Positions 1,728 through 61,566 of a stretch of 64,000 nucleotides of DNA are shown piece by piece. Made by a program: the position numbers and the translations under genes. The notes beneath the pieces were generated by a model. That model did not search any database and was not told the DNA's origin. It saw only the letters and a list, made by a program, of their open reading frames with translations. The stretch comes from a bacterium (GTDB taxonomy: Bacteria; Patescibacteriota; Dojkabacteria; JAKAPS01; JAJZLI01): positions 10,844 to 74,843 of the forward strand of contig DAHXLB010000032.1 of the NCBI GenBank assembly GCA_027371855.1, read 5' to 3'. The first letter of the stretch is position 1; each line of letters opens with the position of its first letter.

Positions 1728-1732
1728 ATGTT

Positions 1733-5175: not shown

Positions 5176-5197
5176 TGATTATAAACCCGAAACCTTT

Positions 5198-29544: not shown

Positions 29545-29570
29545 GGATTAAGATTCTAGATAAATAGAAA

Positions 29571-29882: not shown

Positions 29883-29889
29883 GTGAAAT

Positions 29890-31885: not shown

Positions 31886-32303
31886 CTGCTGTTGCCTCTC
31901 TAGTATTAGGATCTTGTGGATATGTACTTGAAGAAGAAAGTGTATTTGTATTTACTCTATAAGCATAAGATACTGTTACATATTCTGTATATATACCGTA
32001 ACTTGTTTGTCCTGGGTATAAAGCCCATCCTTGTGTTTGTAACGGAGGATTATTTGTTGCCGTATATGCAAGGTAATATTGTCCTGGGATAAAGTCAGAC
32101 CAAGATTGATTCTGTAACGCATAAAGGTTTTCTAATTCTAGTGATAAAAGATATTTTGCCTCTAGTCTCTGATTTGATAATTCTATTGGTTTTTCTATCG
32201 GTGTTATTAAAAATAATGATGAAGTTAACAGTATGCCTATTATTGTTATAGATATTAGAAGTTCAATTAGAAGTTGTCCAGAATTGTTAGTATATTGCCC
32301 CAT
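31809..32303 (-). CDS. prepilin-type minor pilin
   Basis: SG|QLLIELLISITIIGILL has the class III signal with Glu at +5. Confidence 0.6.
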   Translation of the reverse strand: MGQYTNNSGQLLIELLISITIIGILLTSSLFLITPIEKPIELSNQRLEAKYLLSLELENLYALQNQSWSDFIPGQYYLAYTATNNPPLQTQGWALYPGQTSYGIYTEYVTVSYAYRVNTNTLSSSSTYPQDPNTREATAVVSFTSLGQTYTYQESEYFTDWQQF

Positions 32304-32769
32304 TTTGATTTATGCTAATTATTTTAGAAGAGAATGAATTTCCGAGGGTAAAACTTATTCCAGAATTTTGCAACATACCATTTTGTGCACTAAACACAAT
32401 TGGGTTGTTATTTGAGGGTAAAATATTGGTTATATTAAGACTGAATGGAAGATAATATACTTGGTTTGAGGGATTAGAGCTTGAATATAAAGACCCAGGG
32501 AACAGTGTTACTGTAGTTTGAGTAAAGTAAACTCCATATGTAGAAACACCGCCAGTATTATTCATTGCATCATCTTGGGATTGTTTTACTATTGAAGAGA
32601 TGGTTTGTGTTGCATTATTGGTATTAGTATCTGCAAGTAGTACAAAATAAGCAATGCTTGAGGCTGTTGCAAGAATAGCAGTTATAGTTATGGTTATGAG
32701 CAGTTCAATTAGAGTGAATCCAAGGGATCCGGATCCCTTTAAGTTTAGTTTGTTTGAGGTAGTTTTCAT
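32287..32769 (-). CDS. prepilin-type minor pilin
   Basis: SLG|FTLIELLITITITAILA has the class III signal with Glu at +5. Confidence 0.65.
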   Translation of the reverse strand: MKTTSNKLNLKGSGSLGFTLIELLITITITAILATASSIAYFVLLADTNTNNATQTISSIVKQSQDDAMNNTGGVSTYGVYFTQTTVTLFPGSLYSSSNPSNQVYYLPFSLNITNILPSNNNPIVFSAQNGMLQNSGISFTLGNSFSSKIISINQNGAIY

Positions 32770-32791
32770 TGGTTTTAAATTATAAATATTA

Positions 32792-45590: not shown

Positions 45591-47258
45591 TTATTCTTTT
45601 ACGACTCTTAATACTTCTTCAAGAGAGGTTATTCCCTCTTCAGCCTTTCTCATCCCATCTTCTATCATTAAACTCATCCCACTTTCTTGTGCTGCTTTTT
45701 GTATCACATTTGCGTTTTCCCTTCTTGCTATGAGAGTCTTTATATCATCCGTTACTTCTAAAACCTCATATATGCCAATCCTTCCCTTATATCCGTTTGT
45801 ACAATACTCACAACCTTGAGGTTTAAAAAACTTAGCTTGTGTGATTTTTTTAGTAACACCTTTTTTAGTATATTGCTCTTCTAATATACCTATTAGTTTT
45901 TTATCTAAAGAATATTCCAGTTTACAATTATTACAGAGTTTTCTAACTAATCTTTGAGCTATTATAACATTTAAGGTGGAAGATACTAAAAATGATTCAA
46001 TATGCATATCTATAAGTCTTGGTATAGCCCCAGATGAATCATTAGTGTGAAGTGTTGATAAAACTAAATGTCCTGTCATTGCTGCATTTATTGCAATATC
46101 TGCAGTCTCAGTATCTCTAATCTCTCCTACCATTATTACATCAGGATCTTGCCTTAAAAATGATCGTAACCCAGATGCAAAAGTAAGCCCTATATTTGCA
46201 TTTACCTGGGTTTGGTTTACCCTTGGCATAGAATATTCAATAGGGTCTTCAATAGTATCTAAGTTCACTTCTGGTGTATTTAATTCTGATAATACTGTAT
46301 ATAATGTTGTACTTTTCCCTGACCCAGTTGGTCCTGTTACAAGAATCATTCCAACAGTTCTTTTTATTGCATCTTCAATAACCGACAGATCTCTCCCGGT
46401 CATACCTAAACTCTCTAAGCTATATTCTTTTGCATTATCTTCAAGTAATCTCATAACTAATACTTCTCCAGAATATACAGGCATGATAGAGACTCTAAAA
46501 GATATATCTCTATCACTTATTGTTGATTTGAATCTTCCATCTTGAGGGAGTCTGTGTTCATCAATTTTTAAATTTGCTAGAATTTTTATCCTTGCAAGTA
46601 CTGCTTGGTGTACCGCAAGGGGATAAGTAGCCTGATCATGAAGTATACCATCTATTCTATACCTTACTATTGCCTCAGTTTCCATTGGTTCTATATGAAT
46701 ATCAGATGCTCCCATGGTTTTTGCATACTCAAGTATGGTATCAGTAATATTTATAATGGGTAGAGCTTCAGTCTCTCCTGACTTGACGTTTTTAGATTCT
46801 TTGGCATTCTTTTCAATTATATCTTTAAGCTCTTCTTTTATGGATGTTTTGTAGAACTTAAGTCCTTCATAAAAAGATTTTTCTGTTATAAAATATGGGT
46901 CTATGTTATATCCAGTACCTTTTTTTATAAACTCGATGGTATTTATATCTCTTGGATTTGTCATCCCTATTTTTAAAGTTGAAGTTGTTTTGTCAAATGC
47001 TACTATCTTTTTTTCTATTGCTGTTTTTTCAGGAATTATCTTTACAACCGCCGGGTCTATGGTTTTATGTGCTAGGGAGATATAAGGAATACTAAGTTCA
47101 GTCTCTACTATCTCGCCCAATTTATCTTCCGTGATAGTATTTTGAGCTATCAATAAATCCTCAACAGAAGTATTTAACTGTTTTGCCTTTTCTTCTAATT
47201 CTGTATAAAGGCTTTCTGATATATAATTTTTAGATATTAATATATTTTTTAGATTCAT
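45591..47258 (-). CDS. pilB: type IV pilus assembly ATPase PilB (GspE family)
   Basis: Walker A VTGPTGSGKSTTLYTVL, with Asp box, His box and a tetracysteine motif (CNNCK...CEYCTNGYKGRIGIYEVL). It has an N-terminal GSPII-like domain. Confidence 0.9.
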   Translation of the reverse strand: MNLKNILISKNYISESLYTELEEKAKQLNTSVEDLLIAQNTITEDKLGEIVETELSIPYISLAHKTIDPAVVKIIPEKTAIEKKIVAFDKTTSTLKIGMTNPRDINTIEFIKKGTGYNIDPYFITEKSFYEGLKFYKTSIKEELKDIIEKNAKESKNVKSGETEALPIINITDTILEYAKTMGASDIHIEPMETEAIVRYRIDGILHDQATYPLAVHQAVLARIKILANLKIDEHRLPQDGRFKSTISDRDISFRVSIMPVYSGEVLVMRLLEDNAKEYSLESLGMTGRDLSVIEDAIKRTVGMILVTGPTGSGKSTTLYTVLSELNTPEVNLDTIEDPIEYSMPRVNQTQVNANIGLTFASGLRSFLRQDPDVIMVGEIRDTETADIAINAAMTGHLVLSTLHTNDSSGAIPRLIDMHIESFLVSSTLNVIIAQRLVRKLCNNCKLEYSLDKKLIGILEEQYTKKGVTKKITQAKFFKPQGCEYCTNGYKGRIGIYEVLEVTDDIKTLIARRENANVIQKAAQESGMSLMIEDGMRKAEEGITSLEEVLRVVKE

Positions 47259-51076: not shown

Positions 51077-52852
51077 ATGAACGAGAAACAACATTCAATT
51101 CCTCAAAATATAATGAGTATACAATTTAAGCTTATAGGGAATATGTCTATGAGGCAATTTCTTATAATCGCCACTCCTTTATTTATTGGTTTTATAATGT
51201 ATGTTATAAAAATAAGTAATTATATAACGGTACCGTTTACTGCCATATTTCTTCTTTCAGCTCTTGCTATAGCATTTGTTCCTCTTGATGACAGACCTTT
51301 AGATGAATGGATTACAAACTTTATAGTCGCAATAAGAAACCCTACACAAAGAATTTGGAAAAAAAATGAAGTAGTCCCTAATATTCTTAAGATCGACAAG
51401 CCTAGTGTTAGTAAAACTAATAATAAAAAAGATATTGCAATGTTTCTATATCAGTCTCCCTTTGATAATTCACTAAACTCAGTTAATGAAGATGCTGTAG
51501 ATAACGCCCTTGATGTAAAGGAGAAGACTTTAATTGCAAATATTGATAAGATAAATAGTATGATATCTAGTGGATCTACAAGTGCCTCTGTGCCTACTAA
51601 AACTTTGGGGAGTGATTTGTTTCAGCAAGAATCTCATTCGAGTGGAGTAGGAAGCTCCGTGCCTTCTCCTTCACCTATATCTGGAAATTCAGCACAAAAT
51701 GGTGATTTTAAAGAAACAACTCCTATAGAGGATCTCGTAAGTCCAATTATTCCAGAAAGTCCTACACCTAAAACTTCAAATGACCGGGATAAAGATAGTG
51801 AAGATAGTAAAATACCTCAATATAATCCTTTTAACATAAGCAATATCACTCCAGTCTCTGCAGCAGAAGAAGTCAAAGCTGCTGGCAATCCAAATATTAG
51901 AGAAGATTTTCTAAATACAGGGATTCAACAAGAAGCATCTGTCCCCGGTCAGATGGAGAATCCTTTTCAAGATATTATTAATCAAATTAATCCTCAAAAT
52001 ACATCATCTTCCAAGGTAATATCACAAGAACAAACTACAGAGTCTGAGACTATGCCATCAGGGGATACTCCGGAAATAAAAGCACCAAGCGTAGTCTTGA
52101 ATGGTGGGACTAAGGATGACAATGATTCTCAAAGTCCTGATTTATCTCAAAATACATCAAGTAACACTCAAGTTGAGCCACCTCCCGAATTCCAAACAGG
52201 TACAACTGCTAACTCTGAGAATAATTCTAGAGAAGAAGAGCTTAATAAAATATTAACAAGGATACAATCATTAGAAGAAGAAAACCAAAAGCTTAAATCT
52301 GAACTTGCAGGGCAATCTGTCTCAACAGAACAAGCTGAATCAAAAGTTTCAAATTTGTCTCCAAAAGAAACTCCTGTACAAACTCAAGAACCAGTTCAAG
52401 AACCAGTTCAAGAACAAATTGCTGAGTCAACACAAACCCAAACTGTAATACAAAAAGGAGATAATAATCCTGCTCAAGAAAATCCCAATCAAGCTAGCCA
52501 AGACCAATCCATTAGTCTTACTAGGCAGCAGTTAATTGATCACCTTCCAGAATTTACAAAAGTCCCTAATGTTGTAGCAGGGGTAGTTATTACTGGTGAT
52601 GGGAAGATATTAAATAATGCTATTGTTATAATCAAAGATACAAATCAAAAACCAGTTAGGGCCGTAAAAACAAATCAACTAGGACAATTTTTTACAAGAA
52701 CTCCCTTACCATCTGGAAGATATGATATCGAAGTTGATGCAGCAGGGTATAAATTTAATACTGCAACAATAGAACTTAATAATCAAGTAATACCTCCTTT
52801 TATGTTTATACCTACATCTGAGGGGGAGCAAAAAAATATTAGCGGAATGTAA
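51077..52852 (+). CDS. PrgI/VirB3-like two-TM N-domain fused to a long S/T/P/Q-rich linker and a C-terminal CarboxypepD_reg-like beta-sandwich domain
   Basis: The N-terminus IQFKLIGNMSMRQFLIIATPLFIGFIMYVI...VPLDDRPLDEWITNFIVAIRNPTQRIW parallels the PrgI family (F.GLT.RQF...P.. and FW..P..R.Y). The C-terminus GVVITGDGKILNNAIVIIKDTNQKPVRAVKTNQLGQFFTRTPLPSGRYDIEVDAAGYKF matches a carboxypeptidase-regulatory-like domain. A PVQE x3 repeat lies in the linker. Confidence 0.5.
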   Translation: MNEKQHSIPQNIMSIQFKLIGNMSMRQFLIIATPLFIGFIMYVIKISNYITVPFTAIFLLSALAIAFVPLDDRPLDEWITNFIVAIRNPTQRIWKKNEVVPNILKIDKPSVSKTNNKKDIAMFLYQSPFDNSLNSVNEDAVDNALDVKEKTLIANIDKINSMISSGSTSASVPTKTLGSDLFQQESHSSGVGSSVPSPSPISGNSAQNGDFKETTPIEDLVSPIIPESPTPKTSNDRDKDSEDSKIPQYNPFNISNITPVSAAEEVKAAGNPNIREDFLNTGIQQEASVPGQMENPFQDIINQINPQNTSSSKVISQEQTTESETMPSGDTPEIKAPSVVLNGGTKDDNDSQSPDLSQNTSSNTQVEPPPEFQTGTTANSENNSREEELNKILTRIQSLEEENQKLKSELAGQSVSTEQAESKVSNLSPKETPVQTQEPVQEPVQEQIAESTQTQTVIQKGDNNPAQENPNQASQDQSISLTRQQLIDHLPEFTKVPNVVAGVVITGDGKILNNAIVIIKDTNQKPVRAVKTNQLGQFFTRTPLPSGRYDIEVDAAGYKFNTATIELNNQVIPPFMFIPTSEGEQKNISGM

Positions 52853-52855
52853 ATT

Positions 52856-53539
52856 ATGTCAATATTATCAGATCCTAAAAGGATACCAATAGTAGCAACA
52901 ACTCAAGACCATCTTGATATAGAGGATATAAAAGATAATCTTCTTATTTTAAAGAATGGGAATGTATGTATCGTTATTGAGACTTCTGCTGTAAATTTTT
53001 ATCTTTTATCTGAGATTGAACAAGAGAGTAAGATATATGCATTTGCAGGGTTACTAAACTCTCTAGGCTTTTATATTCAAGTTATGATACACACTGAGAA
53101 TATTGATATATCTAGGTATTTAAAACACCTTGATGAATATAAGTTAAAACAGAAGGACCCTAAAATTAAATACCAGATAGATATTTATAGAAAAAATATT
53201 AAGGATCTGATTGTGAAAAATAATGTTTTGGATAAACATTTTTATATAGTGATACCGTACCTTGCATCTATGCCTAAGAAACCTTCTTTCATAAAACAAT
53301 TTTTTGGTAAACAGGCTAAATTAGGAGATACTACTAAATTGGTTGAAGCTGCAAAAATTAGACTTTATCCAAGAAGAGATCATATAATAAAACAACTTTC
53401 TAGAATGGGCCTTAGATCTAGACAGTTAGAAAGTGCAGATTTGATAAAACTTTTTTATAGTATATATAATCCTATGAATGCTAAAATTAGAGGAGATTTT
53501 GATGAATATACAGGTCCAATAGTTTCTGGATCAAAATAA
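52856..53539 (+). CDS. stand-alone VirB4 N-terminal-domain-like protein (split VirB4, part 1)
   Basis: IPIVATTQDHLDIEDIKDNLLILKNGNVCIVIETSAVNFYLLSEIEQESKIYAFAGLLNSLGFYIQVMIHTENI parallels the extreme N-terminus of proteobacterial VirB4/TrbE (YLPYIGHLSDHIVLLEDGSIMSIARIDGVAFELEEIEMRNARCRAFNTLFRNIADDHVSIYAHLVRH in A. tumefaciens VirB4). No TM segment. An 18-bp gap separates it from the ATPase ORF. Confidence 0.5.
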   Translation: MSILSDPKRIPIVATTQDHLDIEDIKDNLLILKNGNVCIVIETSAVNFYLLSEIEQESKIYAFAGLLNSLGFYIQVMIHTENIDISRYLKHLDEYKLKQKDPKIKYQIDIYRKNIKDLIVKNNVLDKHFYIVIPYLASMPKKPSFIKQFFGKQAKLGDTTKLVEAAKIRLYPRRDHIIKQLSRMGLRSRQLESADLIKLFYSIYNPMNAKIRGDFDEYTGPIVSGSK

Positions 53540-53556
53540 TTATTATAGATGAATAT

Positions 53557-55746
53557 ATGAATCTACCATTTAAGAAACAACAAGGAAACAAAAATAATCA
53601 AGCAGGGGTAGCTAACCAAGAGGTCACTACACAGCCTAGTGATACTCAGACTCCATACACACAGGGAAGCTGGTCTCAAGGGGATTTGCCTCAAGGGGGT
53701 TTGCCTCAAGGAGGCTTACCTCAAGGGATGGGAAGTCTTGATGATCAAACAGCGAAAGATCCGTTGATAGAATTTGGGAATGGAATCAATTCAATTAAAG
53801 ATATTATAGCTCCAGCATCAATTGAAGTAGATTTTTCTCATATTAAAATAGGTGAGAAATACTATAAAACGTATTTTGCAATCGCATATCCAAGATATGT
53901 TGTTCCTAACTGGTTATCGCCATTAATAACATTTGAACACTCTATTGATATAAGTATGTTCTACTATCCTATAAGTTCCAATACCGTTCTTATACAACTA
54001 AGGAGGAAAATTGCTGAAATGGAGGCTACTACAAATACTATGATAGATTCAGGTAAAGTTTTAGACCCTAATTTAAAAGTTGCTCTAGAAGATGCAAAGC
54101 AATTGCAGGATGATCTTGCAAAAGGGTCTGAAAGGTATTTCCATTTTGCTTTGTATGTATCAATAAGAGCAGACACCTTAGAGGAGCTTAATGATATATC
54201 TAAAAATCTTGAGGCTACCTTAGGAGCGATGTCTCTTATTATTAAGCCAGCAACTCTGCAAATGGAAGAAGGTTTCAAATCTACTCTGCCTGAGGGTAGC
54301 GACAAAATGTACTATACGCATAATATGGATACTACATCTATAGCTACAACCTTTCCTTTTGTATCTTCAGAGCTAACATCAGACAGGGGTGTTTTATATG
54401 GTATTAATAAGGCTAATAAGAGTCTTGTGGTTTTTGATAGATTTGATCTTGAAAATGCAAATTCTGTAATTTTTGCAAAGTCTGGAGCAGGTAAAAGTTT
54501 TCTTGTAAAACTTGAAGCTTTAAGATCTCTTATGTTAGGAACCCAGATTATAATAATAGACCCAGAAAGGGAATATGAGACTTTATGTAAGGCAATGAAT
54601 GGATCATATATTTCTTTTTCACAAGATGGAGATTCAAAAATCAATCCATTTGATTTGTCTGGGGTTTATGAAGAAGGAGAAGATGAATTAAGGTTCAAAA
54701 TTCTTTCCTTACATGGACTTTTTAAGGTTATGCTTGGAGGAGAAGAGGGTGGGTTGACTAATATGGAAAATGCTATTTTAGATAAAGCATTAATTTTAAC
54801 ATATAGAGATAAGGGGATAACTTTTGATCCTTCAACGCAGGTAAAGGATCCTCCATTGATGGAAGATTTGTACAAAATCCTTCTTTCAATGGAAGAGGAA
54901 GAGGCTCATTCTTTAGCACAAAGATTAGAGAAATTTGTCAAAGGTTCTGCTTCTGGAATCTTTGATCAACATACAAATGTAGATATAAATAATCAATTTA
55001 TGGTGTTTTCAATAAGAGATTTATCAGATGAATTAAGACCAATAGCCATGTTTTTAATGTTGGACTTCATATGGACAAGAGTTAAAAAAGAACTAAAGAG
55101 AAGATTATTCATAATAGATGAGGCTTGGATATTAATGCAATACCCAGATTCAGCACAATTTGTTTATGCAGTATCAAAAAGAGCAAGGAAGTATTATCTT
55201 GGTCTTACTACTGTATCCCAAGATGTGGATGACTTTTTATCTAATGATTATGGAAAGGCTGTTGTTACAAATTCATCGATACAGATTTTATTAAGACAAT
55301 CTCCTACTGCTATAGACCACCTTTCTGATGTGTTTTATTTATCTGCAGGGGAGAAGAATTTATTGTTGTCTGCAGAAATTGGAGAAGGTATATTTTTTGT
55401 TGGAGCAAACCATGTAGCAATACAAATATATTCTTCAGAGTATGAATATACATTAATAACTACAAATCCAGAAGAAATATTAAAGATGAGAGCAGAAGGG
55501 GCATCATTGGATAGGATAGTTCCAAACACAATAGCAGAAGAAGATAGTAAAACTGTATTAGACGATGATGAAGATGTTAAACCTCAACCTCAAGAGCAAT
55601 CAGAAATATCTCAAAGTAAAGTGTCAGAGCCTCCCAAGGATGTTGAAACTAAAGAGGTATCTGATGAGGATATAGGTAAGGAAACATTAGCTCCAGATAG
55701 TGATGGAGAAAATACACAGGTACAATATAACAGCATTGTTAGTTAG
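53557..55746 (+). CDS. virB4: VirB4/TraC/TrbE-family T4SS ATPase (split VirB4, part 2)
   Basis: APASIEVDFSHIKIGEKYYKTYFAIAYPRYVVPNWLSPL is the VirB4 central-N motif. Walker A VIFAKSGAGKSFLVKLEA, Walker B RRLFIIDEAWILM and ARKYYLGLTTVSQDVDDF are present. LPQGG repeats occur in the N-terminal tail. Confidence 0.85.
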   Translation: MNLPFKKQQGNKNNQAGVANQEVTTQPSDTQTPYTQGSWSQGDLPQGGLPQGGLPQGMGSLDDQTAKDPLIEFGNGINSIKDIIAPASIEVDFSHIKIGEKYYKTYFAIAYPRYVVPNWLSPLITFEHSIDISMFYYPISSNTVLIQLRRKIAEMEATTNTMIDSGKVLDPNLKVALEDAKQLQDDLAKGSERYFHFALYVSIRADTLEELNDISKNLEATLGAMSLIIKPATLQMEEGFKSTLPEGSDKMYYTHNMDTTSIATTFPFVSSELTSDRGVLYGINKANKSLVVFDRFDLENANSVIFAKSGAGKSFLVKLEALRSLMLGTQIIIIDPEREYETLCKAMNGSYISFSQDGDSKINPFDLSGVYEEGEDELRFKILSLHGLFKVMLGGEEGGLTNMENAILDKALILTYRDKGITFDPSTQVKDPPLMEDLYKILLSMEEEEAHSLAQRLEKFVKGSASGIFDQHTNVDINNQFMVFSIRDLSDELRPIAMFLMLDFIWTRVKKELKRRLFIIDEAWILMQYPDSAQFVYAVSKRARKYYLGLTTVSQDVDDFLSNDYGKAVVTNSSIQILLRQSPTAIDHLSDVFYLSAGEKNLLLSAEIGEGIFFVGANHVAIQIYSSEYEYTLITTNPEEILKMRAEGASLDRIVPNTIAEEDSKTVLDDDEDVKPQPQEQSEISQSKVSEPPKDVETKEVSDEDIGKETLAPDSDGENTQVQYNSIVS

Positions 55747-56894
55747 ATTGTCCTTGCTATATAATTTTTAATTATTAAGCTAAATGCTCCAAATATAATA
55801 ATTCCTACGAATATATTGTACAACCCGCCTATTACTGGGATAATACTTATTAAGGATGATATAAATATTCCTGCGAATGCTGATCTGAATCTTATACCTG
55901 CATCCATTCTATATAAATATTTTGTAATGAATGCCCCTAATATTAATCCATTTAACATATATGATAAGAACAATAGTAGCATATAAATTCCCATCAGGAA
56001 TATAGAGATAGGGATTCCTATTATTGTTAGTAATAATATTACTACAACCACAGGCGTTACTATTATCTCTATAAACCCATACCCAAAACTTTTCCATGTT
56101 TTTTCAGTAGTATTTTTTACTACAGATAAAGATAGTTTTGGAAATATCCTTATAAATAATAATACAAATATTATCATAGCAAGGAACATAAGTACTGTCC
56201 TTGCTATGGTAAAGGTAATTTCTCTTTGGTCTTGGTTTGTATAATATCTATATATATGACCTTTGATACTACTTTTATTGACATGGGAGTTTTTATTATC
56301 TGATCCTGTATATGAAAAATATCCTTTTACAGACGATCCTTTGTTTATTTCAACATTATTGGATGATAACTTTAGATTCCCACCAATAATCCCATCTAAG
56401 ATAAAATGCCCAGTATTAACGTATGCATTATGCATTACTTTCCCACCAATGGAGACTTCTCCTCCTAATGCATAGAGGTTGCCATACACAGTAGCATTTT
56501 TTGATATATCTATATTGCCTCCTAAGGAAATCAGGTCTTCTTTAATAATGCCGTTTATAGTAATATTTCCAGAGACAATATAAGCATTATTTAAAACAGT
56601 TCCATTTATTACTGTAGTTCCTGAAAAATCAATAAAATCCTGAAGTATAGTACTATTTATTATAGAATTACTTCCAAAAAATACTGTATCACCTAAAACT
56701 TTATTGTTAACAGAAAGTGAGTTCCCAGCAACATATAAATTACCAGACGATTTTTTATATACATTTACATTTTGGTTATATTGAAGACTTGAGGCATGAG
56801 ATTTTTTAGAAAATAGAAAAGATGCCGAAAAAATACCTGCTGTTACAAATACCAATGCTAATAATACAGAAAATGTTGCTACTTTATTTTTCAT
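55743..56894 (-). CDS. beta-helix-repeat (bactofilin/DUF4097-like) protein with N-terminal anchor and C-terminal multi-TM domain
   Basis: A signal/TM is followed by repetitive G-x-hydrophobic segments (VAGNSLSVNNKVLGDTVFFGSNSIINSTIL...GNITINGIIKEDLISLGGNIDI), then 4-6 TM helices. Confidence 0.45.
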   Translation of the reverse strand: MKNKVATFSVLLALVFVTAGIFSASFLFSKKSHASSLQYNQNVNVYKKSSGNLYVAGNSLSVNNKVLGDTVFFGSNSIINSTILQDFIDFSGTTVINGTVLNNAYIVSGNITINGIIKEDLISLGGNIDISKNATVYGNLYALGGEVSIGGKVMHNAYVNTGHFILDGIIGGNLKLSSNNVEINKGSSVKGYFSYTGSDNKNSHVNKSSIKGHIYRYYTNQDQREITFTIARTVLMFLAMIIFVLLFIRIFPKLSLSVVKNTTEKTWKSFGYGFIEIIVTPVVVVILLLTIIGIPISIFLMGIYMLLLFLSYMLNGLILGAFITKYLYRMDAGIRFRSAFAGIFISSLISIIPVIGGLYNIFVGIIIFGAFSLIIKNYIARTI

Positions 56895-56970
56895 ATATTT
56901 AGAAAAAATTCTACTCTAATTTTGAAAAGATTGCAAATTTTCCTTTTATAAGTGTCTTTTATTTAAATAT

Positions 56971-57021
56971 TTGACATTTTTTATAACTCATCTATAATAG
57001 ACATATTTAACTCATCTATAA
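56971..57021 (+). promoter_or_regulatory. strong sigma70-type promoter (TTGACA-N16-TATAAT) upstream of the second T4SS module, with a 13-bp direct repeat AACTCATCTATAA x2
   Basis: TTGACA at 56971-56976 and TATAAT at 56993-56998. The AACTCATCTATAA repeat occupies 56985-56997 and 57009-57021. The ATG of the first gene is at 57028. Confidence 0.5.
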
Positions 57022-57027
57022 AACATT

Positions 57028-57279
57028 ATGCAAATACCTGGGCTTTCACAATTTGTTTCAAATATAGCTTCTTTACTAGTAACTACTGTAGAGACAGTGT
57101 TGTTAGTTATAGTAATAATACTTGGGATTCAATTTATTTTAAATGCAGATAACCCTCAAGAGAGGTCTAAACTTTTAAGGAGAATAATCTGGATAATGAT
57201 AGGTCTTTTTATTGTTCTTAGTGCTACTAGTTTAACGACGTTTATAAATGGGATTGTTAATTCGGGGACTGTCTATTAA
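57028..57279 (+). CDS. small two-TM hairpin membrane protein (VirB2/TrbC-like pilin candidate)
   Basis: 83 aa with two hydrophobic helices separated by NADNPQERSKLLRR. It is the first gene of the module and overlaps the VirB6-like gene. Confidence 0.35.
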   Translation: MQIPGLSQFVSNIASLLVTTVETVLLVIVIILGIQFILNADNPQERSKLLRRIIWIMIGLFIVLSATSLTTFINGIVNSGTVY

Positions 57280-58168
57280 TTTATTATTTCTTTTTCTACT
57301 AGCATCTCCTATATTTGCTCAAGGTCAAAATATTGGAGGAGGGTGCTCTGGAGAGACATCATATTCTTTTGAAGGAGTAGTTTGTTCCTTAGGCTATATA
57401 ATAGATCAATTTACAGAATATACTCCTAATATTTTAAAACCAGGGGGAGGTGCTTTTGAAGGCGCTGCTATTTCTAACTATAGAAACGGGACTCAGTATC
57501 TTGCAATTTCAATTCTGCCTGTAATAATCCTTGTTTATGTTATACATTTAATTGGAGAAGCAACTGTGGGGAAGACCAATTTATCTCCCTCTGATTTATT
57601 GGGGAGTCTTTTTATTTCTGTTATATTCCTGTTTACATCGATATACTTTTTATCTTTCTTCATAACTTTTATAAATGTTATAGACCAATTCATAGTTGTT
57701 CATATGATAGGAGGGAGCTCAAGTTTATTCTCTACTATTATAAATACCATGGGGGCTCAGTCTCTGCAAATAGGGATATTTTCAGGAATTGTATCAATAA
57801 TACTGTATATACTGCTTATTATAGCCTTATTCATATTTTCCCTGCAGTTTATTATAAGATTCATTATGTTATGGATTTTAATCCTTTTATTCCCTATTTT
57901 TGTTGTTATATCTATATATCCACCCATGAGGGATTTATTACCCAATGCTTTTTCTAAAATAGTACAGCTTTTATTTATTCAACCAGCATTTCTTATTGGA
58001 ATTTCTGTTTTTGTAGTAATAGTGAATAATTATTCCATAGGGAATTTAGAAAGATTAATACTTGGAATTATAGTACTATTTTCTCTTTCATTGGTTCCTC
58101 AATTACTTGGAGGTGTTATTAACGAAAGGATATTTTCTCTGTCATCTAAAATGAAATCTATAATATAA
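57248..58168 (+). CDS. VirB6/TrbL-like polytopic membrane protein
   Basis: Signal peptide (LLFLFLLASPIFAQG) and a Cys-containing ectodomain, followed by at least six TM helices including LILLFPIFVVISIYPPMRDLLPNAFSKIVQLLFIQPAFLIG. Confidence 0.55.
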   Translation: MGLLIRGLSINLLFLFLLASPIFAQGQNIGGGCSGETSYSFEGVVCSLGYIIDQFTEYTPNILKPGGGAFEGAAISNYRNGTQYLAISILPVIILVYVIHLIGEATVGKTNLSPSDLLGSLFISVIFLFTSIYFLSFFITFINVIDQFIVVHMIGGSSSLFSTIINTMGAQSLQIGIFSGIVSIILYILLIIALFIFSLQFIIRFIMLWILILLFPIFVVISIYPPMRDLLPNAFSKIVQLLFIQPAFLIGISVFVVIVNNYSIGNLERLILGIIVLFSLSLVPQLLGGVINERIFSLSSKMKSII

Positions 58169-58569
58169 TGGATAAGGTAAAAGTTTATAAAATAAAAAGC
58201 TTAAGAAATAATTATTTCTATATAACATCTGATATTTTTGTTGTGCTATTTTCAACACCTCCACTATTTGTTTTGATAATATCTTCTCTTGATATACATA
58301 TAAAAATATTCTTAGGTTCTTCTATTGTAGCCCTTTTTTATTTTCTAATAAAACAAAATTTTAGAGGTAGGCCTACATATTTATATATACTGGATCTACT
58401 TAAATATTTATTTAAAAATAAAAAATATATTTTCTTATACAATATTTTTGAAGTAGATTTACAAGAATCACTGATTCCAGAATCAATGATTCCCAAAATC
58501 AAAGTTCAATACTTAAAATTTTTAAATAATAAAATTAGTTTTAAAGGGGCTGGTCCCAAAGAGTCATAA
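58168..58569 (+). CDS. PrgI/VirB3-like small membrane protein
   Basis: 133 aa with two TM helices after a basic N-terminus. GRPTYLYILDLLKYLFKNKKYIF resembles the PrgI C-terminal motif. It sits directly upstream of the split VirB4. Confidence 0.4.
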   Translation: MDKVKVYKIKSLRNNYFYITSDIFVVLFSTPPLFVLIISSLDIHIKIFLGSSIVALFYFLIKQNFRGRPTYLYILDLLKYLFKNKKYIFLYNIFEVDLQESLIPESMIPKIKVQYLKFLNNKISFKGAGPKES

Positions 58570-58573
58570 TAAT

Positions 58574-59137
58574 ATGAAGAGAATTAATGAATTTTACCCA
58601 ATAATTGATGTTGTTGGAGGAACAATAATTCTAAAAGATCATTTTTATATGAGGATAATAGAAATTTTCCCTTTACATTTTGTATTATCAGAGGAAGATG
58701 TAAAGAATGATTTCATAAAAAAGTACAAAGAATTTTTAAAAGGGATACATATACCAATAGATATAACAGTAGTATCTAGGGAAATAGAAGAAAGTGAAGT
58801 TTTGAAATATATAAAAAATATTAAAGGACCTAGGGCCACAGGACCTGGGTCCAAAGGATCTAGATCTAAATCTGGAGAGATAAATTTACAAAAATTATAT
58901 AAAGACAGTTTTAAAATATTTTATAAGCAAAATAAAATTTATTCTCAAAGATTTTTTATAACGTATAAAATAAAATATCCCAGGAAACATTTATTTTTTA
59001 AAAAGGAATTAGACAATATAGACAATTCTTTGAAAATACATGATAAACAAATTTTATTCTTACTTTCTAAAACTCCACTACGTACAAAAATTATAAATAC
59101 AAGAGGAGAAATTATTAATATTTTAAGTTTTATATAA
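58574..59137 (+). CDS. stand-alone VirB4 N-terminal-domain-like protein (split VirB4, part 1, paralogue of 52856..53539)
   Basis: YPIIDVVGGTIILKDHFYMRIIEIFPLHFVLSEEDVKNDFIKKYKEFLKGIHIPIDITVVSREI is clearly alignable with 52856..53539. It contains an in-frame palindromic-repeat insertion (KGPRATGPGSKGSRSKSGE). The stop is 3 bp before the ATPase ORF. Confidence 0.5.
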   Translation: MKRINEFYPIIDVVGGTIILKDHFYMRIIEIFPLHFVLSEEDVKNDFIKKYKEFLKGIHIPIDITVVSREIEESEVLKYIKNIKGPRATGPGSKGSRSKSGEINLQKLYKDSFKIFYKQNKIYSQRFFITYKIKYPRKHLFFKKELDNIDNSLKIHDKQILFLLSKTPLRTKIINTRGEIINILSFI

Positions 59138-59140
59138 ATT

Positions 59141-60766
59141 ATGATTAAAAAGATAAGGGTAAACTTTAAAGGTTCAGAGGATGTTTTATTTCCAAGGTTA
59201 ATAACTGAAAAGCAAAAATATATAAAAATAGATAGTAGGTTTTATAAAATGTATTATCTGCATGACTTTCCTCAAGATGTTACACAATTTTATTTTTCTG
59301 ATTTTCTCAATTTGAATTCAAATATAACAATAAGACAATTTTTACAGCCCATTGATAAAAAAGCCTTACTTCAAGGTATAAAGATGAGGATTGCTGCACT
59401 ATCCACAAAAAGGCATAAAAGGATTTCTTCAGGTAAAATTAGGGATATGTCACTGGATGTTGAGATTTCAAATCTAGAAGATTTTAATTTATCTATTGTA
59501 AATCAAGAAGAAGAGGGAGTATTGTTTGGTATAGTTATTGCTATATCTGAAAATTCACAATCAAAATTAGATATTTCTTGTAAAAATTTTGAACTTTTTG
59601 CTGGATCACGTAGTTTCAAATTTTACCCATTAGATTTAAGGCAAGCAGAAGGTTATAAATCACTACTACATTCATCTTATTCCGATATATCTTTGCCAAC
59701 AATTATTAATCTTAATACAGTAGCAGCATCTACTCTGTTTACATCTAATAACCTTATTGATTTTACAGGAATAATATATGGAATAAATGTTAATACTAAA
59801 TCTATTATAGCTTTTGATATATTTAAATTTGAGAACTATAACGCAGTTGTATTTGCAAAGTCTGGAGCTGGAAAAAGTTTTTTTGCAAAAACTGTTATTC
59901 TGAGGATGGTATCAAAAGGTATAAAAACTATTGTTATAGATCCAGAAGGTGAATATTTGAATCTTGCAAAAAACCTGAATGGAAAGATACTTAAACTGAG
60001 TCATGATTCAATGTTTCATATAAATCCATTTGATTTAACTAAGAATGAGAATGTTGAAGAGAAGATACAATTTTTAAAAGGTTTTTTAAAACGTGCCTGT
60101 AGTTATTATGATAAAAACGAAATAGACAGAGCCCTAATTAAAGTATATAAGGAATATAAAACTCCTACATTTGTTGATTTATATAATATCCTTTTAAAAT
60201 CAAAGGCCCGAGTGGCAGATGAGATATACAATATAGCCTTGGGTACCAATGCTTCCTTGTATGCTCAAAAGACAAATATAAATATATCTTCCAATGACGA
60301 TTTAATTGTTTTTGATATTTCAAATTTAGATAATGAAAACATATCATTGATGATGTACCTTGTTTTAAATTTTATATGGAATATGCAAGATGGAAAAACT
60401 CAAAGAGAGATTTTTATTGATGAGGCACACAGGTTATTTGAAAATATGGATCTGGTTAATTATTTAAAAACAATTTCAAAAAGAGCAAGGAAATATAATT
60501 TTGGAATTTTCTATATAACTCAAGATGTGGAGGATTTTATTGTAACAGAACAAGGAAGGTCAATTATTGCGAATACATCACTTAAGGTATTGTTAAAACA
60601 GGAAAAAATAAACATACCTGGATTGTCACGCTCCTTCTCTCTCTCTGGTGATGAAAAAAATTCTTTATTGAAATTTGATATAGGGGAAGCTTTGATTATA
60701 GCTAAAGATATTCATATAAACAGTAAAATATTTGCATTTGATTTTGAAAAAGATTTTTTCGCATAG
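59141..60766 (+). CDS. virB4: VirB4-family T4SS ATPase (split VirB4, part 2, paralogue)
   Basis: FPRLITEKQKYIKIDSRFYKMYYLHDFPQDVTQFYFSDFL is the VirB4 central-N motif. Walker A VVFAKSGAGKSFFAKTVI, Walker B REIFIDEAHRLF and ARKYNFGIFYITQDVEDF are present. Confidence 0.8.
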   Translation: MIKKIRVNFKGSEDVLFPRLITEKQKYIKIDSRFYKMYYLHDFPQDVTQFYFSDFLNLNSNITIRQFLQPIDKKALLQGIKMRIAALSTKRHKRISSGKIRDMSLDVEISNLEDFNLSIVNQEEEGVLFGIVIAISENSQSKLDISCKNFELFAGSRSFKFYPLDLRQAEGYKSLLHSSYSDISLPTIINLNTVAASTLFTSNNLIDFTGIIYGINVNTKSIIAFDIFKFENYNAVVFAKSGAGKSFFAKTVILRMVSKGIKTIVIDPEGEYLNLAKNLNGKILKLSHDSMFHINPFDLTKNENVEEKIQFLKGFLKRACSYYDKNEIDRALIKVYKEYKTPTFVDLYNILLKSKARVADEIYNIALGTNASLYAQKTNINISSNDDLIVFDISNLDNENISLMMYLVLNFIWNMQDGKTQREIFIDEAHRLFENMDLVNYLKTISKRARKYNFGIFYITQDVEDFIVTEQGRSIIANTSLKVLLKQEKINIPGLSRSFSLSGDEKNSLLKFDIGEALIIAKDIHINSKIFAFDFEKDFFA

Positions 60767-60768: not shown

Positions 60769-61566
60769 TTATTTTACAAGCACAGCCTTAACTATGTATC
60801 TTTGAGTTCCAATACCTGGAGGTATACACGTCATAAGAGTAAGGTACTTTTTATTCTTTGATGCTGCTAGTACAGAAAAATCAGTAGGTTGAACTACTCT
60901 TGCTGTAAAGACCTTATACGTATATGTTATTCCTTTAAATTTTAGATAAATTAAATTTCCATTACTTAATTTTAATATGTTTGTGAAAATGCCAAGGAAA
61001 GAGCTGGGATATAAGTCGGCAAACCATTGGGGAGCAGAGTGACCATAGACATAAACATTTCCAGTTTCTCCAGGAAGAGCAGTCCCTTGCATTTGCGCAA
61101 GTGAATTTACAAGAACATGCTCATAGGCTTGTGTATTAAACCCGTCAACATTTGTTTTTACTGGGACATTATTAAGGTTTATAGTAGGAATGGAAAGGTA
61201 AAAATATCCTTTATAGCTTGAATCATTCTTTAGAGTTTGACTATTGATTATTTTTGTAAAATATGAGGATGATGGGTCTGCGTTTACTATAGCACTCTGA
61301 TATTTATGAAGAAGGTTTGTGTCTATATAATATTTAATAAGTGGAGATGCAGCTATAAACACAAAAAATCCTCCTATAACTATTAAAAATATAGATCCAT
61401 AATTAAATCGCAATTTTCTCTTCTGGAAGAGCCTTTTCTTTTTAAATCCTATCTTTGGCATTCTGAAGTATCTAGATACAAGATTCGTTTGGCCAAAAGG
61501 CATTTTAACCCTAAAAATTAAATTTTTTCTGGAGTGGATTTCTTTTACGTACATGTACTTTGCCAT
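60769..61566 (-). CDS. sortase-family transpeptidase
   Basis: N-terminal TM (IFLIVIGGFFVFIAA), a His region (NVYVYGHSAP), the catalytic TLMTC motif and a downstream conserved Arg (QRYIVKAVL). Confidence 0.7.
   Translation of the reverse strand: MAKYMYVKEIHSRKNLIFRVKMPFGQTNLVSRYFRMPKIGFKKKRLFQKRKLRFNYGSIFLIVIGGFFVFIAASPLIKYYIDTNLLHKYQSAIVNADPSSSYFTKIINSQTLKNDSSYKGYFYLSIPTINLNNVPVKTNVDGFNTQAYEHVLVNSLAQMQGTALPGETGNVYVYGHSAPQWFADLYPSSFLGIFTNILKLSNGNLIYLKFKGITYTYKVFTARVVQPTDFSVLAASKNKKYLTLMTCIPPGIGTQRYIVKAVLVK

What the first reader, a model, noticed from the sequence alone, without database searches (positions are those of the whole stretch)
51077..60766. Two paralogous minimal T4SS-like modules, each with a VirB3/PrgI-like membrane protein and a VirB4 ATPase split into an N-domain ORF plus an ATPase ORF
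Module 1 (51077-55746) is a PrgI-like fusion protein, a 227-aa VirB4 N-domain ORF and a VirB4 ATPase. Module 2 (57028-60766) is a small 2-TM protein, a VirB6/TrbL-like protein, a PrgI-like protein, a 187-aa VirB4 N-domain ORF and a VirB4 ATPase. The two small ORFs (52856..53539 and 58574..59137) are clearly paralogous. They carry the sequence pattern of the extreme N-terminus of canonical VirB4/TrbE. The ATPase ORFs begin with the next VirB4 segment (F.AIAP...YPR.V..GWL) and contain the Walker A/B motifs. The same split occurs in both diverged copies, which argues for a genuine architecture rather than a sequencing frameshift. I see no VirD4 coupling protein, relaxase, VirB8/9/10/11, integrase or direct repeats in or near the modules. 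They are embedded among housekeeping genes (galU, dnaJ), so a chromosomal, non-conjugative minimal T4SS seems more likely than an ICE. In a reduced episymbiont-like genome this could serve host-cell interaction or DNA uptake. A duplicated, VirB4-split system of this composition is not a textbook arrangement.
Basis: partly seen in the sequence, partly recalled or inferred. Interest (0 to 1): 0.8.

Follow-up and report, generated by a model that had tools for sequence, protein, structure and literature searches.

The report
Two Patescibacteria-type type IV secretion clusters
The region holds two real, intact gene clusters for the chromosomal type IV secretion system typical of ultra-small Patescibacteria, each with the VirB4 motor encoded as a small TrsD-like gene plus a larger ATPase gene, but this two-gene arrangement was already described for staphylococcal plasmids and, in 2025, across this whole phylum, so only the presence of a second, fast-evolving copy is somewhat unusual.

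Summary
All eight ORFs sit at the stated coordinates. Both large ORFs are VirB4 ATPases that start at position 186/187 of the 752-position CD1110 VirB4 profile. Both small ORFs correspond to the missing VirB4 N-terminal segment.

- **The small ORFs.** The 227-aa ORF is a full-length homologue of pSK41 TrsD. The 187-aa ORF is its divergent paralogue (profile-profile E 2e-9). AlphaFold models of both hit only R388 TrwK/VirB4 in the PDB.
- **The split is genuine.** More than 1,200 stand-alone homologue clusters exist. The same layout recurs in independent assemblies. dN/dS is 0.016 to 0.135 for the small ORFs. The split point matches staphylococcal TrsD/TrsE.
- **Not a mobile element.** I found no relaxase, coupling protein, integrase or att repeats. 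Synteny with galU, sortase and dnaJ is conserved, so this is not an ICE.
- **The arrangement is not new.** Quinonero-Coronel et al. 2025 (PMC12102498) describe exactly this Patescibacteria T4SS: VirB4, TrsD, PrgI/VirB3, VirB6 and a VirB2-like pilin, with no relaxase, on the chromosome, often near dnaA.

The one modest addition is a lineage-specific, faster-evolving second cluster that carries the pilin and a VirB6-like protein. Interest is low.

The parts
51077..52852 (+). Module 1 VirB3/PrgI-like membrane protein (2 TM helices at the N-terminus) fused through a ~400-aa S/T/P/Q-rich linker to a C-terminal CarboxypepD_reg-like beta-sandwich
   Evidence: Pfam PrgI 29.9 bits (cutoff 27) at aa 8-92 and CarboxypepD_reg 34 bits (cutoff 32.3) at aa 500-568. 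Orthologues with the same fusion occur in L001, L005, L007 and a Dojkabacteria genome, L094. dN/dS 0.24.
52856..53539 (+). Module 1 TrsD-like protein, equivalent to the detached N-terminal ~185 residues of VirB4 (Pfam PF26593 'TraC-like' family)
   Evidence: NCBIfam VirB4_plasma positions 104-233 (E 2.3e-10) and TrsD (E 7.6e-6). hhalign against pSK41 TrsD: probability 95.3%, E 2e-8, 180 columns. 1,264 stand-alone homologue clusters. AF2 model pLDDT 80.5; the top 14 PDB hits are all TrwK/VirB4. dN/dS 0.016.
53557..55746 (+). Module 1 VirB4 ATPase (TrsE-type, lacking the first ~185 profile positions), with a low-complexity N-terminal 75 aa and an acidic C-terminal tail
   Evidence: CD1110 VirB4 positions 186-735 of 752, 397.9 bits, above the cutoff of 325. 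PDB 4AG5 VirB4 C-terminal domain E 1.4e-52. 60% identical to WWE3/Dojkabacteria VirB4 and 47% to Saccharibacteria VirB4. Aligns with pSK41 TrsE from TrsE aa 36.
56971..56998 (+). Perfect sigma-70 consensus promoter-like site (TTGACA-16-TATAAT), 30 nt upstream of the module 2 pilin start codon
   Evidence: 12/12 match. The total number of sites in the region is not above chance, so this is suggestive only.
57028..57279 (+). Module 2 VirB2/TrbC-like T4SS pilin
   Evidence: Pfam T4SS_pilin 41.5 bits and TrbC 32.3 bits, both above cutoff. NCBIfam Mbov_0395 pilin-like E 3.3e-10. dN/dS 0.11.
57248..58168 (+). Module 2 polytopic membrane protein, a VirB6/TrbL-like candidate
   Evidence: Pfam TrbL E 0.0024, 18.1 bits, below the cutoff of 25.9. 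Its position between the pilin and the VirB3-like gene is conserved in L001, L005, L007 and L009. dN/dS 0.057.
58168..58569 (+). Module 2 small 2-TM membrane protein in the VirB3/TrsC position. Its homology to VirB3/PrgI is not demonstrated.
   Evidence: Weak TcpE hit (E 0.0066) and VirB4_plasma positions 8-96 (E 0.007). hhalign against the module-1 PrgI N-terminus gives probability 0.6% and against pSK41 TrsC 0.2%. Orthologues of 97-126 aa keep the same position.
58574..59137 (+). Module 2 divergent TrsD-like protein (detached VirB4 N-terminal segment)
   Evidence: hhalign of its family (A3) against the module-1 family (A1): probability 96.2%, E 2.3e-9. Orthologues L009 and L005 match VirB4_plasma positions 103-274 (E 1.5e-3 and 2.8e-3). 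The L009 orthologue carries a precomputed PF26593 TraC-like hit. Exhaustive HMMER finds TrsD-like or VirB4-N-terminal stand-alone proteins. AF2 model pLDDT 79.2; the top 14 PDB hits are all TrwK/VirB4. dN/dS 0.135.
59141..60766 (+). Module 2 divergent VirB4 ATPase (TrsE-type)
   Evidence: CD1110 VirB4 positions 187-731, E 1.6e-73, 248 bits, below the equivalog cutoff of 325. Pfam P-loop_TraG and DUF87 above cutoff. Small family of 13 clusters at >=47% identity, then ~32% to all other Patescibacteria VirB4. Walker A/B invariant. dN/dS 0.091.

Best explanation
The region encodes two chromosomal operons of the Patescibacteria-type type IV secretion system, which derives from the monoderm MPF_FATA class.

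In both operons the VirB4 motor is made from two polypeptides, as in staphylococcal pGO1/pSK41 TrsD+TrsE. A ~190-230-aa TrsD-like protein corresponds to the first ~185 residues of a full-length VirB4. A TrsE-type protein carries the rest of the N-terminal domain plus the RecA-like ATPase domain.

- Module 1 (extended PrgI/VirB3, TrsD-like, VirB4) is the slowly evolving, vertically inherited core trio found across the phylum.
- Module 2 (VirB2-like pilin, VirB6-like channel candidate, small 2-TM protein, divergent TrsD-like, divergent VirB4) is a lineage-specific, faster-evolving paralogous operon with its own promoter-like site.

Inferred mechanism. The gene order VirB3 - TrsD - VirB4 is collinear with the domain order of the fused mycoplasma ICE VirB3-VirB4 protein. 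In the R388 structure the VirB4 N-terminal domain contacts VirB3. By analogy, the TrsD-like subunit most likely docks the ATPase hexamer onto the VirB3-like membrane anchor and the VirB6 channel. The VirB4 then powers assembly of a VirB2 pilus and/or transport across the single membrane.

With no relaxase or coupling protein nearby, the system is most likely not conjugative. It probably serves the epibiotic lifestyle, through effector delivery to or import from a host cell, as proposed for Saccharibacteria, where the homologous genes are essential.

What is shown: gene identities, the split point, paralogy, conservation and selection. What is inferred: how the proteins assemble, what the substrate is, and what the system does biologically.
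For: - Family assignments.
- The same split point, CD1110 profile position ~179-187, in window VirB4-1 and VirB4-2, Saccharibacteria P0146 and pSK41 TrsE.
- The A1 family against pSK41 TrsD: probability 95.3%.
- A1 against A3: probability 96.2%.
- Both AF2 models hit only TrwK/VirB4 chains at probability 1.00, and the next hits are noise.
- 1,264 stand-alone homologue clusters.
- The double-module synteny between galU and sortase/dnaJ is conserved in L001, L005 and L007/L008.
- dN/dS is 0.016-0.29 for all genes.
- VirB4-1 is 60% identical to WWE3/Dojkabacteria and 47% to Saccharibacteria. VirB4-2 is ~30% identical to all of these, and it diverges faster between the same genome pairs (82% vs 47%).
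- The trio alone is the usual layout in related classes.
- Literature: PMC12102498 describes the same component set, the absence of a relaxase and the chromosomal position. PMC12857230 and PMC11665869 report that the system is essential in S. epibionticum and that its role is unknown.
Against: - No experimental data exist for this organism.
- The VirB6-like and module-2 VirB3-like assignments are below family thresholds.
- Only 64 kb of the genome was examined. A T4CP or relaxase elsewhere cannot be excluded, and PMC12102498 reports VirD4-like genes far from virB4 in most Patescibacteria.
- The fold searches do not report which VirB4 residues were matched, TM scores are modest (0.40-0.53), and the module-2 model used an alignment dominated by module-1 relatives.
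- The placement of VirB4-2 relative to the Patescibacteria clade rests on pairwise scores, not on a phylogeny.
Confidence: 0.85

Rival explanations
1. The two modules are not independent machines but parts of one composite apparatus. Module 1 lacks a pilin and a channel protein, and module 2 supplies them. The two VirB4/TrsD pairs could occupy different positions in the ATPase assembly, as the inner and outer VirB4 protomers do in R388.
For: - Module 1 has no pilin or VirB6 candidate nearby, and module 2 has both.
- The two modules are kept side by side in three diverged genomes.
Against: - Most related genomes carry only the trio, with no module 2 within 8 kb.
- One relative (L009) has module 2 with no module 1 within 10 kb.
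- The two modules evolve at very different rates.
- The inter-module DNA is variable and holds unrelated genes on the other strand.
Confidence: 0.15
2. The split ORFs are sequencing or assembly frameshifts or nonsense errors in otherwise full-length virB4 genes, i.e. pseudogenes or artefacts.
For: In the window the 187-aa ORF and VirB4-2 are in the same frame. Only TAA plus one codon separates them (and the coordinates).
Against: - The same split is seen in independent assemblies from NCBI, ENA and Logan.
- The frame relationship differs between relatives: overlapping ATGA in L007, and different frames in L001 and L005.
- There are 1,264 stand-alone homologue clusters.
- The split point is identical in pSK41 TrsD/TrsE.
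- dN/dS is 0.016 and 0.135 for the small ORFs.
- Module 1 has several stop codons in the 17-nt spacer and a frame change.
Confidence: 0.01
3. The region is an integrative conjugative element, or the decaying remnant of one, rather than a resident cellular system.
For: - The components are homologous to monoderm conjugation machinery (pSK41 and the mycoplasma ICE).
- AbiEii toxin-antitoxin genes sit between the modules in relatives.
Against: - There is no relaxase, T4CP, integrase or tRNA in the 64-kb window.
- There are no flanking direct repeats beyond AT-rich chance matches.
- GC content is like the surroundings.
- The flanks (galU, sortase, dnaJ) are syntenic in genomes whose VirB4-2 is only 47-52% identical.
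- All genes are under strong purifying selection.
Confidence: 0.03
4. Module 2 is a DNA-import system of the archaeal Ced/Ted type rather than a secretion system.
For: - VirB4-2 hits the NCBIfam CedD model at E 1.5e-15, better than VirB4-1 does (E 1e-5).
- DNA or nucleotide uptake has been proposed for Patescibacteria T4SS (PMC11665869).
Against: - The CedD hit is far weaker than the CD1110 VirB4 hit (E 1.6e-73).
- No CedA-like partners were detected.
- The nearest relatives are ordinary Patescibacteria VirB4 proteins.
- The direction of transport cannot be read from sequence.
Confidence: 0.05

Closest known systems
Patescibacteria (CPR) chromosomal T4SS, as catalogued by Quinonero-Coronel et al. 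2025 (PMC12102498) and shown to be essential in Southlakia epibionticum ML1 (Wang et al. 2023, as cited in PMC12102498 and PMC12857230)
   Same: - The component set: TrsE-type VirB4 + TrsD homologue + PrgI/VirB3 + VirB6 + VirB2-like pilin.
- No relaxase or T4CP next to virB4.
- A chromosomal position among housekeeping genes, in the same 64-kb stretch as dnaA/dnaN (5985-8943).
- VirB4-1 is 47-60% identical to VirB4 of Saccharibacteria, WWE3 and Dojkabacteria.
   Different: - This genome has two clusters. In the paper, 2,425 clade VirB4 proteins occur in 2,407 assemblies, so a second copy is rare.
- The pilin and the VirB6-like gene travel with a divergent, faster-evolving VirB4/TrsD pair, not with the conserved trio.
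- PrgI carries a long linker and a CarboxypepD_reg domain.
pGO1/pSK41 (TrsB-TrsC-TrsD-TrsE) and pIP501 (TraD-TraE) conjugative T4SS of Staphylococcus/Enterococcus, a subclass of MPF_FATA
   Same: - The same two-gene VirB4, split at the same profile position (TrsE starts at CD1110 position 183, the window proteins at 186/187).
- TrsD is 227 aa, the same length as the window ORF, and aligns with it end to end.
- The gene order pilin-like, small membrane protein, TrsD, VirB4 is shared with module 2.
   Different: - The plasmids also carry a relaxase, the T4CP TrsK, the CHAP hydrolase TrsG, topoisomerase and other genes, and they are conjugative. None of these is near the window modules.
- Sequence identity is low (VirB4 26%).
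Mycoplasma ICE VirB4 (NCBIfam NF045975, Mbov_0397 family), a fused VirB3-VirB4 of 894 profile positions
   Same: The three consecutive ORFs of module 2 match consecutive segments of this single profile: positions 8-96, ~103-274 (through orthologues) and 297-893. Module 1 matches positions 104-233 and 292-893. The adjacent pilin matches the Mbov_0395 family.
   Different: There one polypeptide does the job, and here three do. The mycoplasma system is part of a mobile ICE.
R388 TrwK/VirB4 (PDB 7O41-7O43, 8RTB, 8RTD)
   Same: The predicted folds of both small ORFs match only this protein among PDB chains. The ATPase domains match by sequence.
   Different: TrwK is a single 823-aa chain from a diderm system with an outer-membrane core complex. 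Identity to the small ORFs is 10-15%.

Membership tests
VirB4/TrbE/CagE T4SS ATPase | Profile match to VirB4 family models above the curated threshold | tested here: met
   VirB4-1: CD1110 397.9 bits, above the cutoff of 325. Both proteins: Pfam P-loop_TraG and DUF87 above the gathering score. VirB4-2 scores 248 bits, which is below the equivalog cutoff but has E 1.6e-73.
VirB4/TrbE/CagE T4SS ATPase | Intact Walker A and Walker B motifs | tested here: met
   KSGAGKS and IIDEAW / FIDEAH are aligned in both proteins and are invariant across the VirB4-2 family (G242, G244, K245, S246, D427, E428).
TrsD/TraD (detached VirB4 N-terminal segment; Pfam PF26593 TraC-like) | Full-length homology to TrsD | tested here: met
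   Module 1: hhalign against pSK41 TrsD gives probability 95.3% over 180 columns, and NCBIfam TrsD E 7.6e-6, far below the 200-bit subfamily cutoff. Module 2: linked only through the module-1 profile (probability 96.2%). Its direct comparison with pSK41 TrsD fails.
TrsD/TraD (detached VirB4 N-terminal segment; Pfam PF26593 TraC-like) | Corresponds to the N-terminal part of full-length VirB4 and complements the adjacent truncated VirB4 | tested here: met
   The small ORFs and their relatives match VirB4 profiles at CD1110 positions 1-185, VirB4_plasma positions ~92-287 and TIGR00929 positions 3-166. The large ORFs start at CD1110 positions 186/187. The predicted folds hit only TrwK/VirB4.
Patescibacteria-clade T4SS (PMC12102498) | VirB4 belongs to the monophyletic Patescibacteria VirB4 clade | tested here: inconclusive
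   No tree was built. VirB4-1 is 47-60% identical to VirB4 of several Patescibacteria classes and 26% to TrsE, so its membership is very likely. VirB4-2 is ~30% identical to all of those and 26% to TrsE, so its position is uncertain.
Patescibacteria-clade T4SS (PMC12102498) | Companion genes TrsD, PrgI/VirB3, VirB6 and VirB2-like pilin near virB4 | tested here: met
   TrsD-like genes are in both modules. PrgI is above threshold in module 1. The pilin is above threshold in module 2. VirB6 and the module-2 VirB3 are only sub-threshold.
Patescibacteria-clade T4SS (PMC12102498) | Chromosomal, with no relaxase or T4CP adjacent | tested here: met
   None is present in the 64-kb window. Synteny with housekeeping genes is conserved. 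The rest of the genome was not examined.
Conjugative MPF_FATA system / ICE | Relaxase, type IV coupling protein, oriT, and for an ICE also an integrase and att repeats | tested here: not met
   No such genes or repeats were found in the window. oriT cannot be recognised with these tools.
VirB3/PrgI | Profile match plus two N-terminal TM helices, encoded just upstream of virB4 | tested here: met
   This applies to module 1 only: PF12666 at 29.9 bits, above the cutoff of 27. The module-2 133-aa protein is inconclusive, with weak TcpE and VirB4_plasma N-terminal hits and negative profile comparisons.
VirB6/TrbL | Profile match above threshold and a polytopic membrane protein | tested here: inconclusive
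   PF04610 scores 18.1 bits, below the cutoff of 25.9. The protein is polytopic and hydrophobic by inspection, and its operon position is conserved.
Archaeal Ced/Ted DNA import | CedB/CedD-type ATPase as the best match, plus CedA-type membrane partners | tested here: not met
   The CedD match (E 1.5e-15) and the CedB match (E 4.7e-8) are far weaker than the VirB4 models. No CedA-like hit was found.

The most novel reading that the evidence does not exclude
A lineage of Patescibacteria keeps two functionally distinct type IV systems in a very small genome. One is the ancient, near-invariant PrgI/TrsD/VirB4 trio. The other is a rapidly diverging, pilus-forming copy (pilin, VirB6-like, 2-TM protein, TrsD', VirB4') that evolves several times faster, as expected of a host-range or arms-race determinant. 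Alternatively, the two VirB4/TrsD pairs co-assemble into one heteromeric motor. Either way, the natural two-gene VirB4 present in two diverged copies would offer a system for working out what the so far function-less TrsD/TraD protein does.
Probability: 0.3. Interest if true: 0.5.

Novelty: new member of a known kind. Interest (0 to 1): 0.25.

Why it matters
T4SS genes, including the TrsD homologue, are reported to be essential for epibiotic growth of the one genetically tractable Patescibacterium. Their role is unknown (PMC12102498, PMC12857230, PMC11665869). This locus does not add a new kind of system.

It does show three things:
- The TrsD-like gene is the most strongly constrained gene of the cluster (dN/dS 0.016).
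- Its predicted fold matches only VirB4 among solved structures.
- At least one lineage maintains a second, fast-evolving cluster that carries the pilin.

These are useful details for anyone studying how the two-piece VirB4 motor of monoderm T4SSs works. They are increments to published knowledge, not a discovery.

Tried and rejected
1. **Frameshift or assembly artefact.** Rejected on conservation, independent assemblies, variable frame relationships and dN/dS.
2. **ICE.** Rejected: no integrase, relaxase, T4CP, tRNA or att repeats, and synteny is conserved.
3. **Direct Pfam detection of the small ORFs.** This failed. The local Pfam copy gave no hit even for homologues that carry a precomputed PF26593 hit. 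The family name 'TraC-like' came from precomputed annotations.
4. **PDB sequence search with the 227-aa ORF.** It found nothing relevant. The fold search was needed.
5. **Word-index homologue search with the 187-aa ORF.** It found only 3 proteins. Orthologues had to be collected through the neighbouring VirB4-2.
6. **hhalign of the first, shallow 187-aa alignment.** It gave only 56% probability. With diverged orthologues this rose to 96%.
7. **Module-2 VirB3-like protein against PrgI and TrsC profiles.** No support.
8. **Module-2 small ORF family against pSK41 TrsD directly.** No match.
9. **GTDB genome scan for VirB4-2 relatives.** The number of species with module 2 therefore remains unknown.
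10. **Taxon name.** Sources give only 'Patescibacteria group bacterium'. The related assemblies were not found in the supplementary files held for PMC12102498.
11. **Guglielmini 2014 main text.** It does not contain the word TrsD. The statement that TrsD resembles the VirB4 N-terminus is cited from PMC12102498.
13. **The 530-aa membrane protein at 1733-3325.** It shows no similarity to the module-2 VirB6-like protein and no family hits.

Full report
**What is there.**

Module 1 is a tightly packed plus-strand operon.
- 51077-52852 (591 aa) has a PrgI/VirB3 domain at aa 8-92 (PF12666, 29.9 bits, cutoff 27). It also has a C-terminal CarboxypepD_reg beta-sandwich at aa 500-568 (34 bits, cutoff 32.3). 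A long S/T/P/Q-rich linker joins the two.
- 52856-53539 (227 aa) has no hit in the local Pfam copy. It does match NCBIfam VirB4_plasma positions 104-233 of 894 (E 2.3e-10), TrsD/TraD (E 7.6e-6) and CD1110 VirB4 positions 124-179.
- 53557-55746 (729 aa) matches the CD1110 VirB4 equivalog model from position 186 to 735 of 752, at 397.9 bits (cutoff 325). Its RecA-like domain matches the crystallised VirB4 C-terminal domain 4AG5 (E 1.4e-52, from aa 296).

Module 2 is a second tight operon.
- 57028-57279 (83 aa) is a VirB2/TrbC-type T4SS pilin. PF18895 scores 41.5 bits and PF04956 scores 32.3 bits, both above cutoff, and NCBIfam Mbov_0395 pilin-like gives E 3e-10. It is not just a '2-TM protein'.
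- 57248-58168 (306 aa) is a polytopic membrane protein with only a sub-threshold TrbL/VirB6 hit (E 0.0024).
- 58168-58569 (133 aa) is a small 2-TM protein with weak TcpE (E 0.0066) and VirB4_plasma positions 8-96 (E 0.007) hits.
- 58574-59137 (187 aa) has no library hit.
- 59141-60766 (541 aa) matches CD1110 VirB4 positions 187-731 (E 1.6e-73).

The two ATPases are 32% identical (E 3e-87), and both have intact Walker A and B motifs.

**Are the small ORFs VirB4 N-terminal pieces, and are they paralogues?** Pairwise they are only 22% identical (E 0.001). 'Clearly paralogous' therefore overstates what the raw sequences show, but profile-level evidence settles the question.

- The 227-aa ORF has 1,264 homologue clusters. 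Nearly all are stand-alone proteins of 205-305 aa from Patescibacteria (WWE3, Dojkabacteria and others). Most carry a precomputed hit to Pfam PF26593, named 'TraC-like'.
- The 187-aa ORF is almost an orphan by word-index search (3 hits). I collected its orthologues from the gene upstream of VirB4-2 relatives (L005, L007, L009; 35-38% identity).
- A profile of that family aligns with the module-1 family end to end: hhalign probability 96.2%, E 2.3e-9, 168 columns.
- Two of those orthologues match VirB4_plasma positions 103-274 directly.
- An exhaustive HMMER search of 1.84 billion representatives returned 27 hits. All ten of the weaker hits I tested match the first ~185 positions of VirB4 models, and eight of those ten also match TrsD. 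Most of the ten are stand-alone proteins of 210-360 aa.
- AlphaFold models of both ORFs (pLDDT 80.5 and 79.2) have the same order of secondary-structure elements. In Foldseek searches of the PDB, each hits 14 chains of R388 TrwK/VirB4 at probability 1.00 and nothing else above noise.

Three caveats apply to the structural evidence. TM scores are modest (0.40-0.53). The tool does not report the matched residues. The module-2 model used an alignment dominated by module-1 relatives.

**Is the split real?** Yes, for five reasons.
- A closely related genome (GCA_021816845.1, 482-kb contig) has the same gene layout in both modules. So do Logan and ENA assemblies.
- More distant genomes, whose VirB4-2 is 47-56% identical, also keep the split.
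- The reading-frame relationship between the small and large ORFs varies. In the window and in L009 the module-2 pair is in the same frame, separated by TAA plus one codon. In L007 the pair overlaps at ATGA. In L001 and L005 the frames differ. That variation is not what a shared sequencing error would produce.
- The module-1 junction has a frame change and several stop codons.
- Between the window and L001, synonymous divergence is high (dS 0.46-1.3) while dN/dS is low: 0.016 for the 227-aa ORF (the lowest of the T4SS genes and close to pilB at 0.013), 0.135 for the 187-aa ORF, and 0.06-0.09 for the ATPases.

**The precedent.** pSK41 encodes trsB (CagC-type pilin-like), trsC, trsD (227 aa) and trsE (672-aa DUF87/VirB4) in that order.
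- The module-1 family aligns with TrsD over 180 columns (probability 95.3%).
- TrsE aligns with VirB4-1 from TrsE residue 36.
- TrsE starts at CD1110 profile position 183, Saccharibacteria VirB4 P0146 at 179, and the window proteins at 186 and 187.

The split point is therefore homologous and old. It lies inside the VirB4 N-terminal domain, not between the N-domain and the ATPase domain.

**Literature.**
- Quinonero-Coronel et al. 2025 (PMC12102498) surveyed 3,035 Patescibacteria genomes. They report a monophyletic VirB4 clade nested in MPF_FATA.
- They found TrsD to be the most abundant companion. [quoted passage not shown]
- They also report PrgI/VirB3, VirB6 and VirB2-like pilins, almost no relaxases, a chromosomal location often near dnaA, and the essentiality of these genes in S. 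epibionticum ML1.
- Reviews state that the role of the system is unknown. Effector delivery and nutrient or nucleic-acid uptake are the current speculations (PMC12857230 and PMC11665869).
- No function is assigned to TrsD/TraD in the Gram-positive model plasmids.

**Context.** The window is a Patescibacteria chromosome segment of ~31% GC. Sources name it only 'Patescibacteria group bacterium'. It carries dnaA, dnaN, dnaK, pentose-phosphate genes, yidC and several type IV pilus gene groups.
- There is no relaxase, T4CP, integrase or tRNA.
- There are no att-like repeats around the modules.
- The flanks (solute-binding protein, galU, HAD hydrolase upstream; sortase, dnaJ downstream) are syntenic in relatives.

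An ICE is therefore very unlikely.

**What is slightly unusual.** In WWE3, Dojkabacteria and another related genome, the usual layout is the trio alone: PrgI (often extended), TraC-like/TrsD and VirB4, set among housekeeping genes.

Here, and in a small set of relatives, a second operon follows that holds the pilin and the VirB6-like gene.
- VirB4-1 behaves as the orthologue: 60% identical to WWE3/Dojkabacteria and 47% to Saccharibacteria.
- VirB4-2 is about 30% identical to every canonical Patescibacteria VirB4, including its own neighbour, and 26% to TrsE.
- VirB4-2 diverges faster between the same genome pairs (82% vs 47% for window vs L007).
- Its family is small: 13 clusters at >=47% identity among 5.8 billion sequences.

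The published counts (2,425 clade VirB4 proteins in 2,407 assemblies) imply that a second copy is rare. The DNA between the modules is variable: a 383-aa membrane protein here, AbiEii pairs or other genes in relatives. A perfect sigma-70 consensus sits 30 nt upstream of the pilin gene, which suggests a separate transcription unit.

**Mechanism (inferred).** The gene order VirB3-like, TrsD-like, VirB4 follows the domain order of the fused mycoplasma VirB3-VirB4 protein. By analogy, the TrsD-like subunit probably completes the VirB4 N-terminal domain in trans and links the ATPase to the membrane anchor. The VirB4 then drives pilus assembly and/or transport through a VirB6-type channel across the single membrane. 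The substrate and the direction of transport are unknown.

**Verdict.** The feature is real and mostly correctly read. It is a member of an already described system, with one modest twist: a divergent second cluster.

Noticed in passing
window 1-3325 (- strand); L095 9001-19593: Next to trmD/trx and about 2.7 kb from dnaA lies a 530-aa polytopic membrane protein (1733-3325) with no family hit. Downstream of it are a 225-aa protein, a 1,575-aa protein that runs off the window start (which explains the lack of listed ORFs in 1-1050), a 288-aa protein and a 779-aa protein with a weak NlpC_P60 hit. This could be another envelope or T4SS-associated cluster (a VirB6-like channel plus a cell-wall hydrolase) near the origin.
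   Followed up: partly
window 59135-59143: The 187-aa TrsD-like ORF and VirB4-2 are in the same reading frame. Only a TAA stop and one ATT codon separate them. The same holds in L009 but not in L001, L005 or L007, so it looks coincidental. Stop-codon read-through that yields a fused protein cannot be excluded.
   Followed up: partly
window 56971-56998: A perfect TTGACA-16-TATAAT sigma-70 consensus lies in the intergenic region, 30 nt upstream of the module-2 pilin gene. The overall number of promoter-like sites in the region is no higher than in shuffled sequence.
   Followed up: no
window 51077-52852: The PrgI/VirB3-like protein has two N-terminal TM helices followed by a ~400-aa low-complexity linker and a CarboxypepD_reg beta-sandwich. 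With an N-in, two-TM topology the extension would be cytoplasmic, which is odd for such a domain. The fusion also occurs in Dojkabacteria (L094), and other relatives have extensions of other lengths (269-645 aa). It evolves fast (68% aa identity to L001, dN/dS 0.24).
   Followed up: partly
window 55743-56894 (- strand); L001 14137-15391; L007 5931-7935: The space between the two modules is variable. The window and L001 have a 383-aa protein with a weak FapA/beta-solenoid hit and a multi-TM C-terminus. L001 adds an AbiEii toxin-antitoxin pair. L007 has a different AbiEii pair. L005 has a DUF5663 protein and a 996-aa protein.
   Followed up: partly
window 60769-61566 (- strand): A sortase (Pfam Sortase E 9e-23; the best NCBIfam match is class C, well below its cutoff) lies immediately downstream of VirB4-2, convergently oriented. 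It keeps this neighbourhood in L001, L005 and L007. No LPXTG substrate was looked for.
   Followed up: no
window 53557-53790 and 55470-55746: VirB4-1 has a ~75-aa Q/G/P-rich N-terminal extension that contains LPQGG repeats, and a ~90-aa acidic low-complexity C-terminal tail. VirB4-2 lacks both. A similar EPQGG repeat ends DnaK (15706-17676).
   Followed up: no
window 4499-5770, 27016-34039, 45591-47258: Several type IV pilus gene groups share the window with the T4SS clusters: two major-pilin-like genes, pilM/N/O-like genes, a set of minor-pilin-like genes, pilC and pilB. This is consistent with the epibiotic Patescibacteria toolkit.
   Followed up: no
window 37757-42121: A 1,454-aa predicted surface protein with an N-terminal TM or signal segment has no Pfam or NCBIfam match. 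A MacB-like ABC transporter follows it.
   Followed up: no
window 1-64000: No tRNA genes and no Rfam families at gathering threshold were found in 64 kb.
   Followed up: yes
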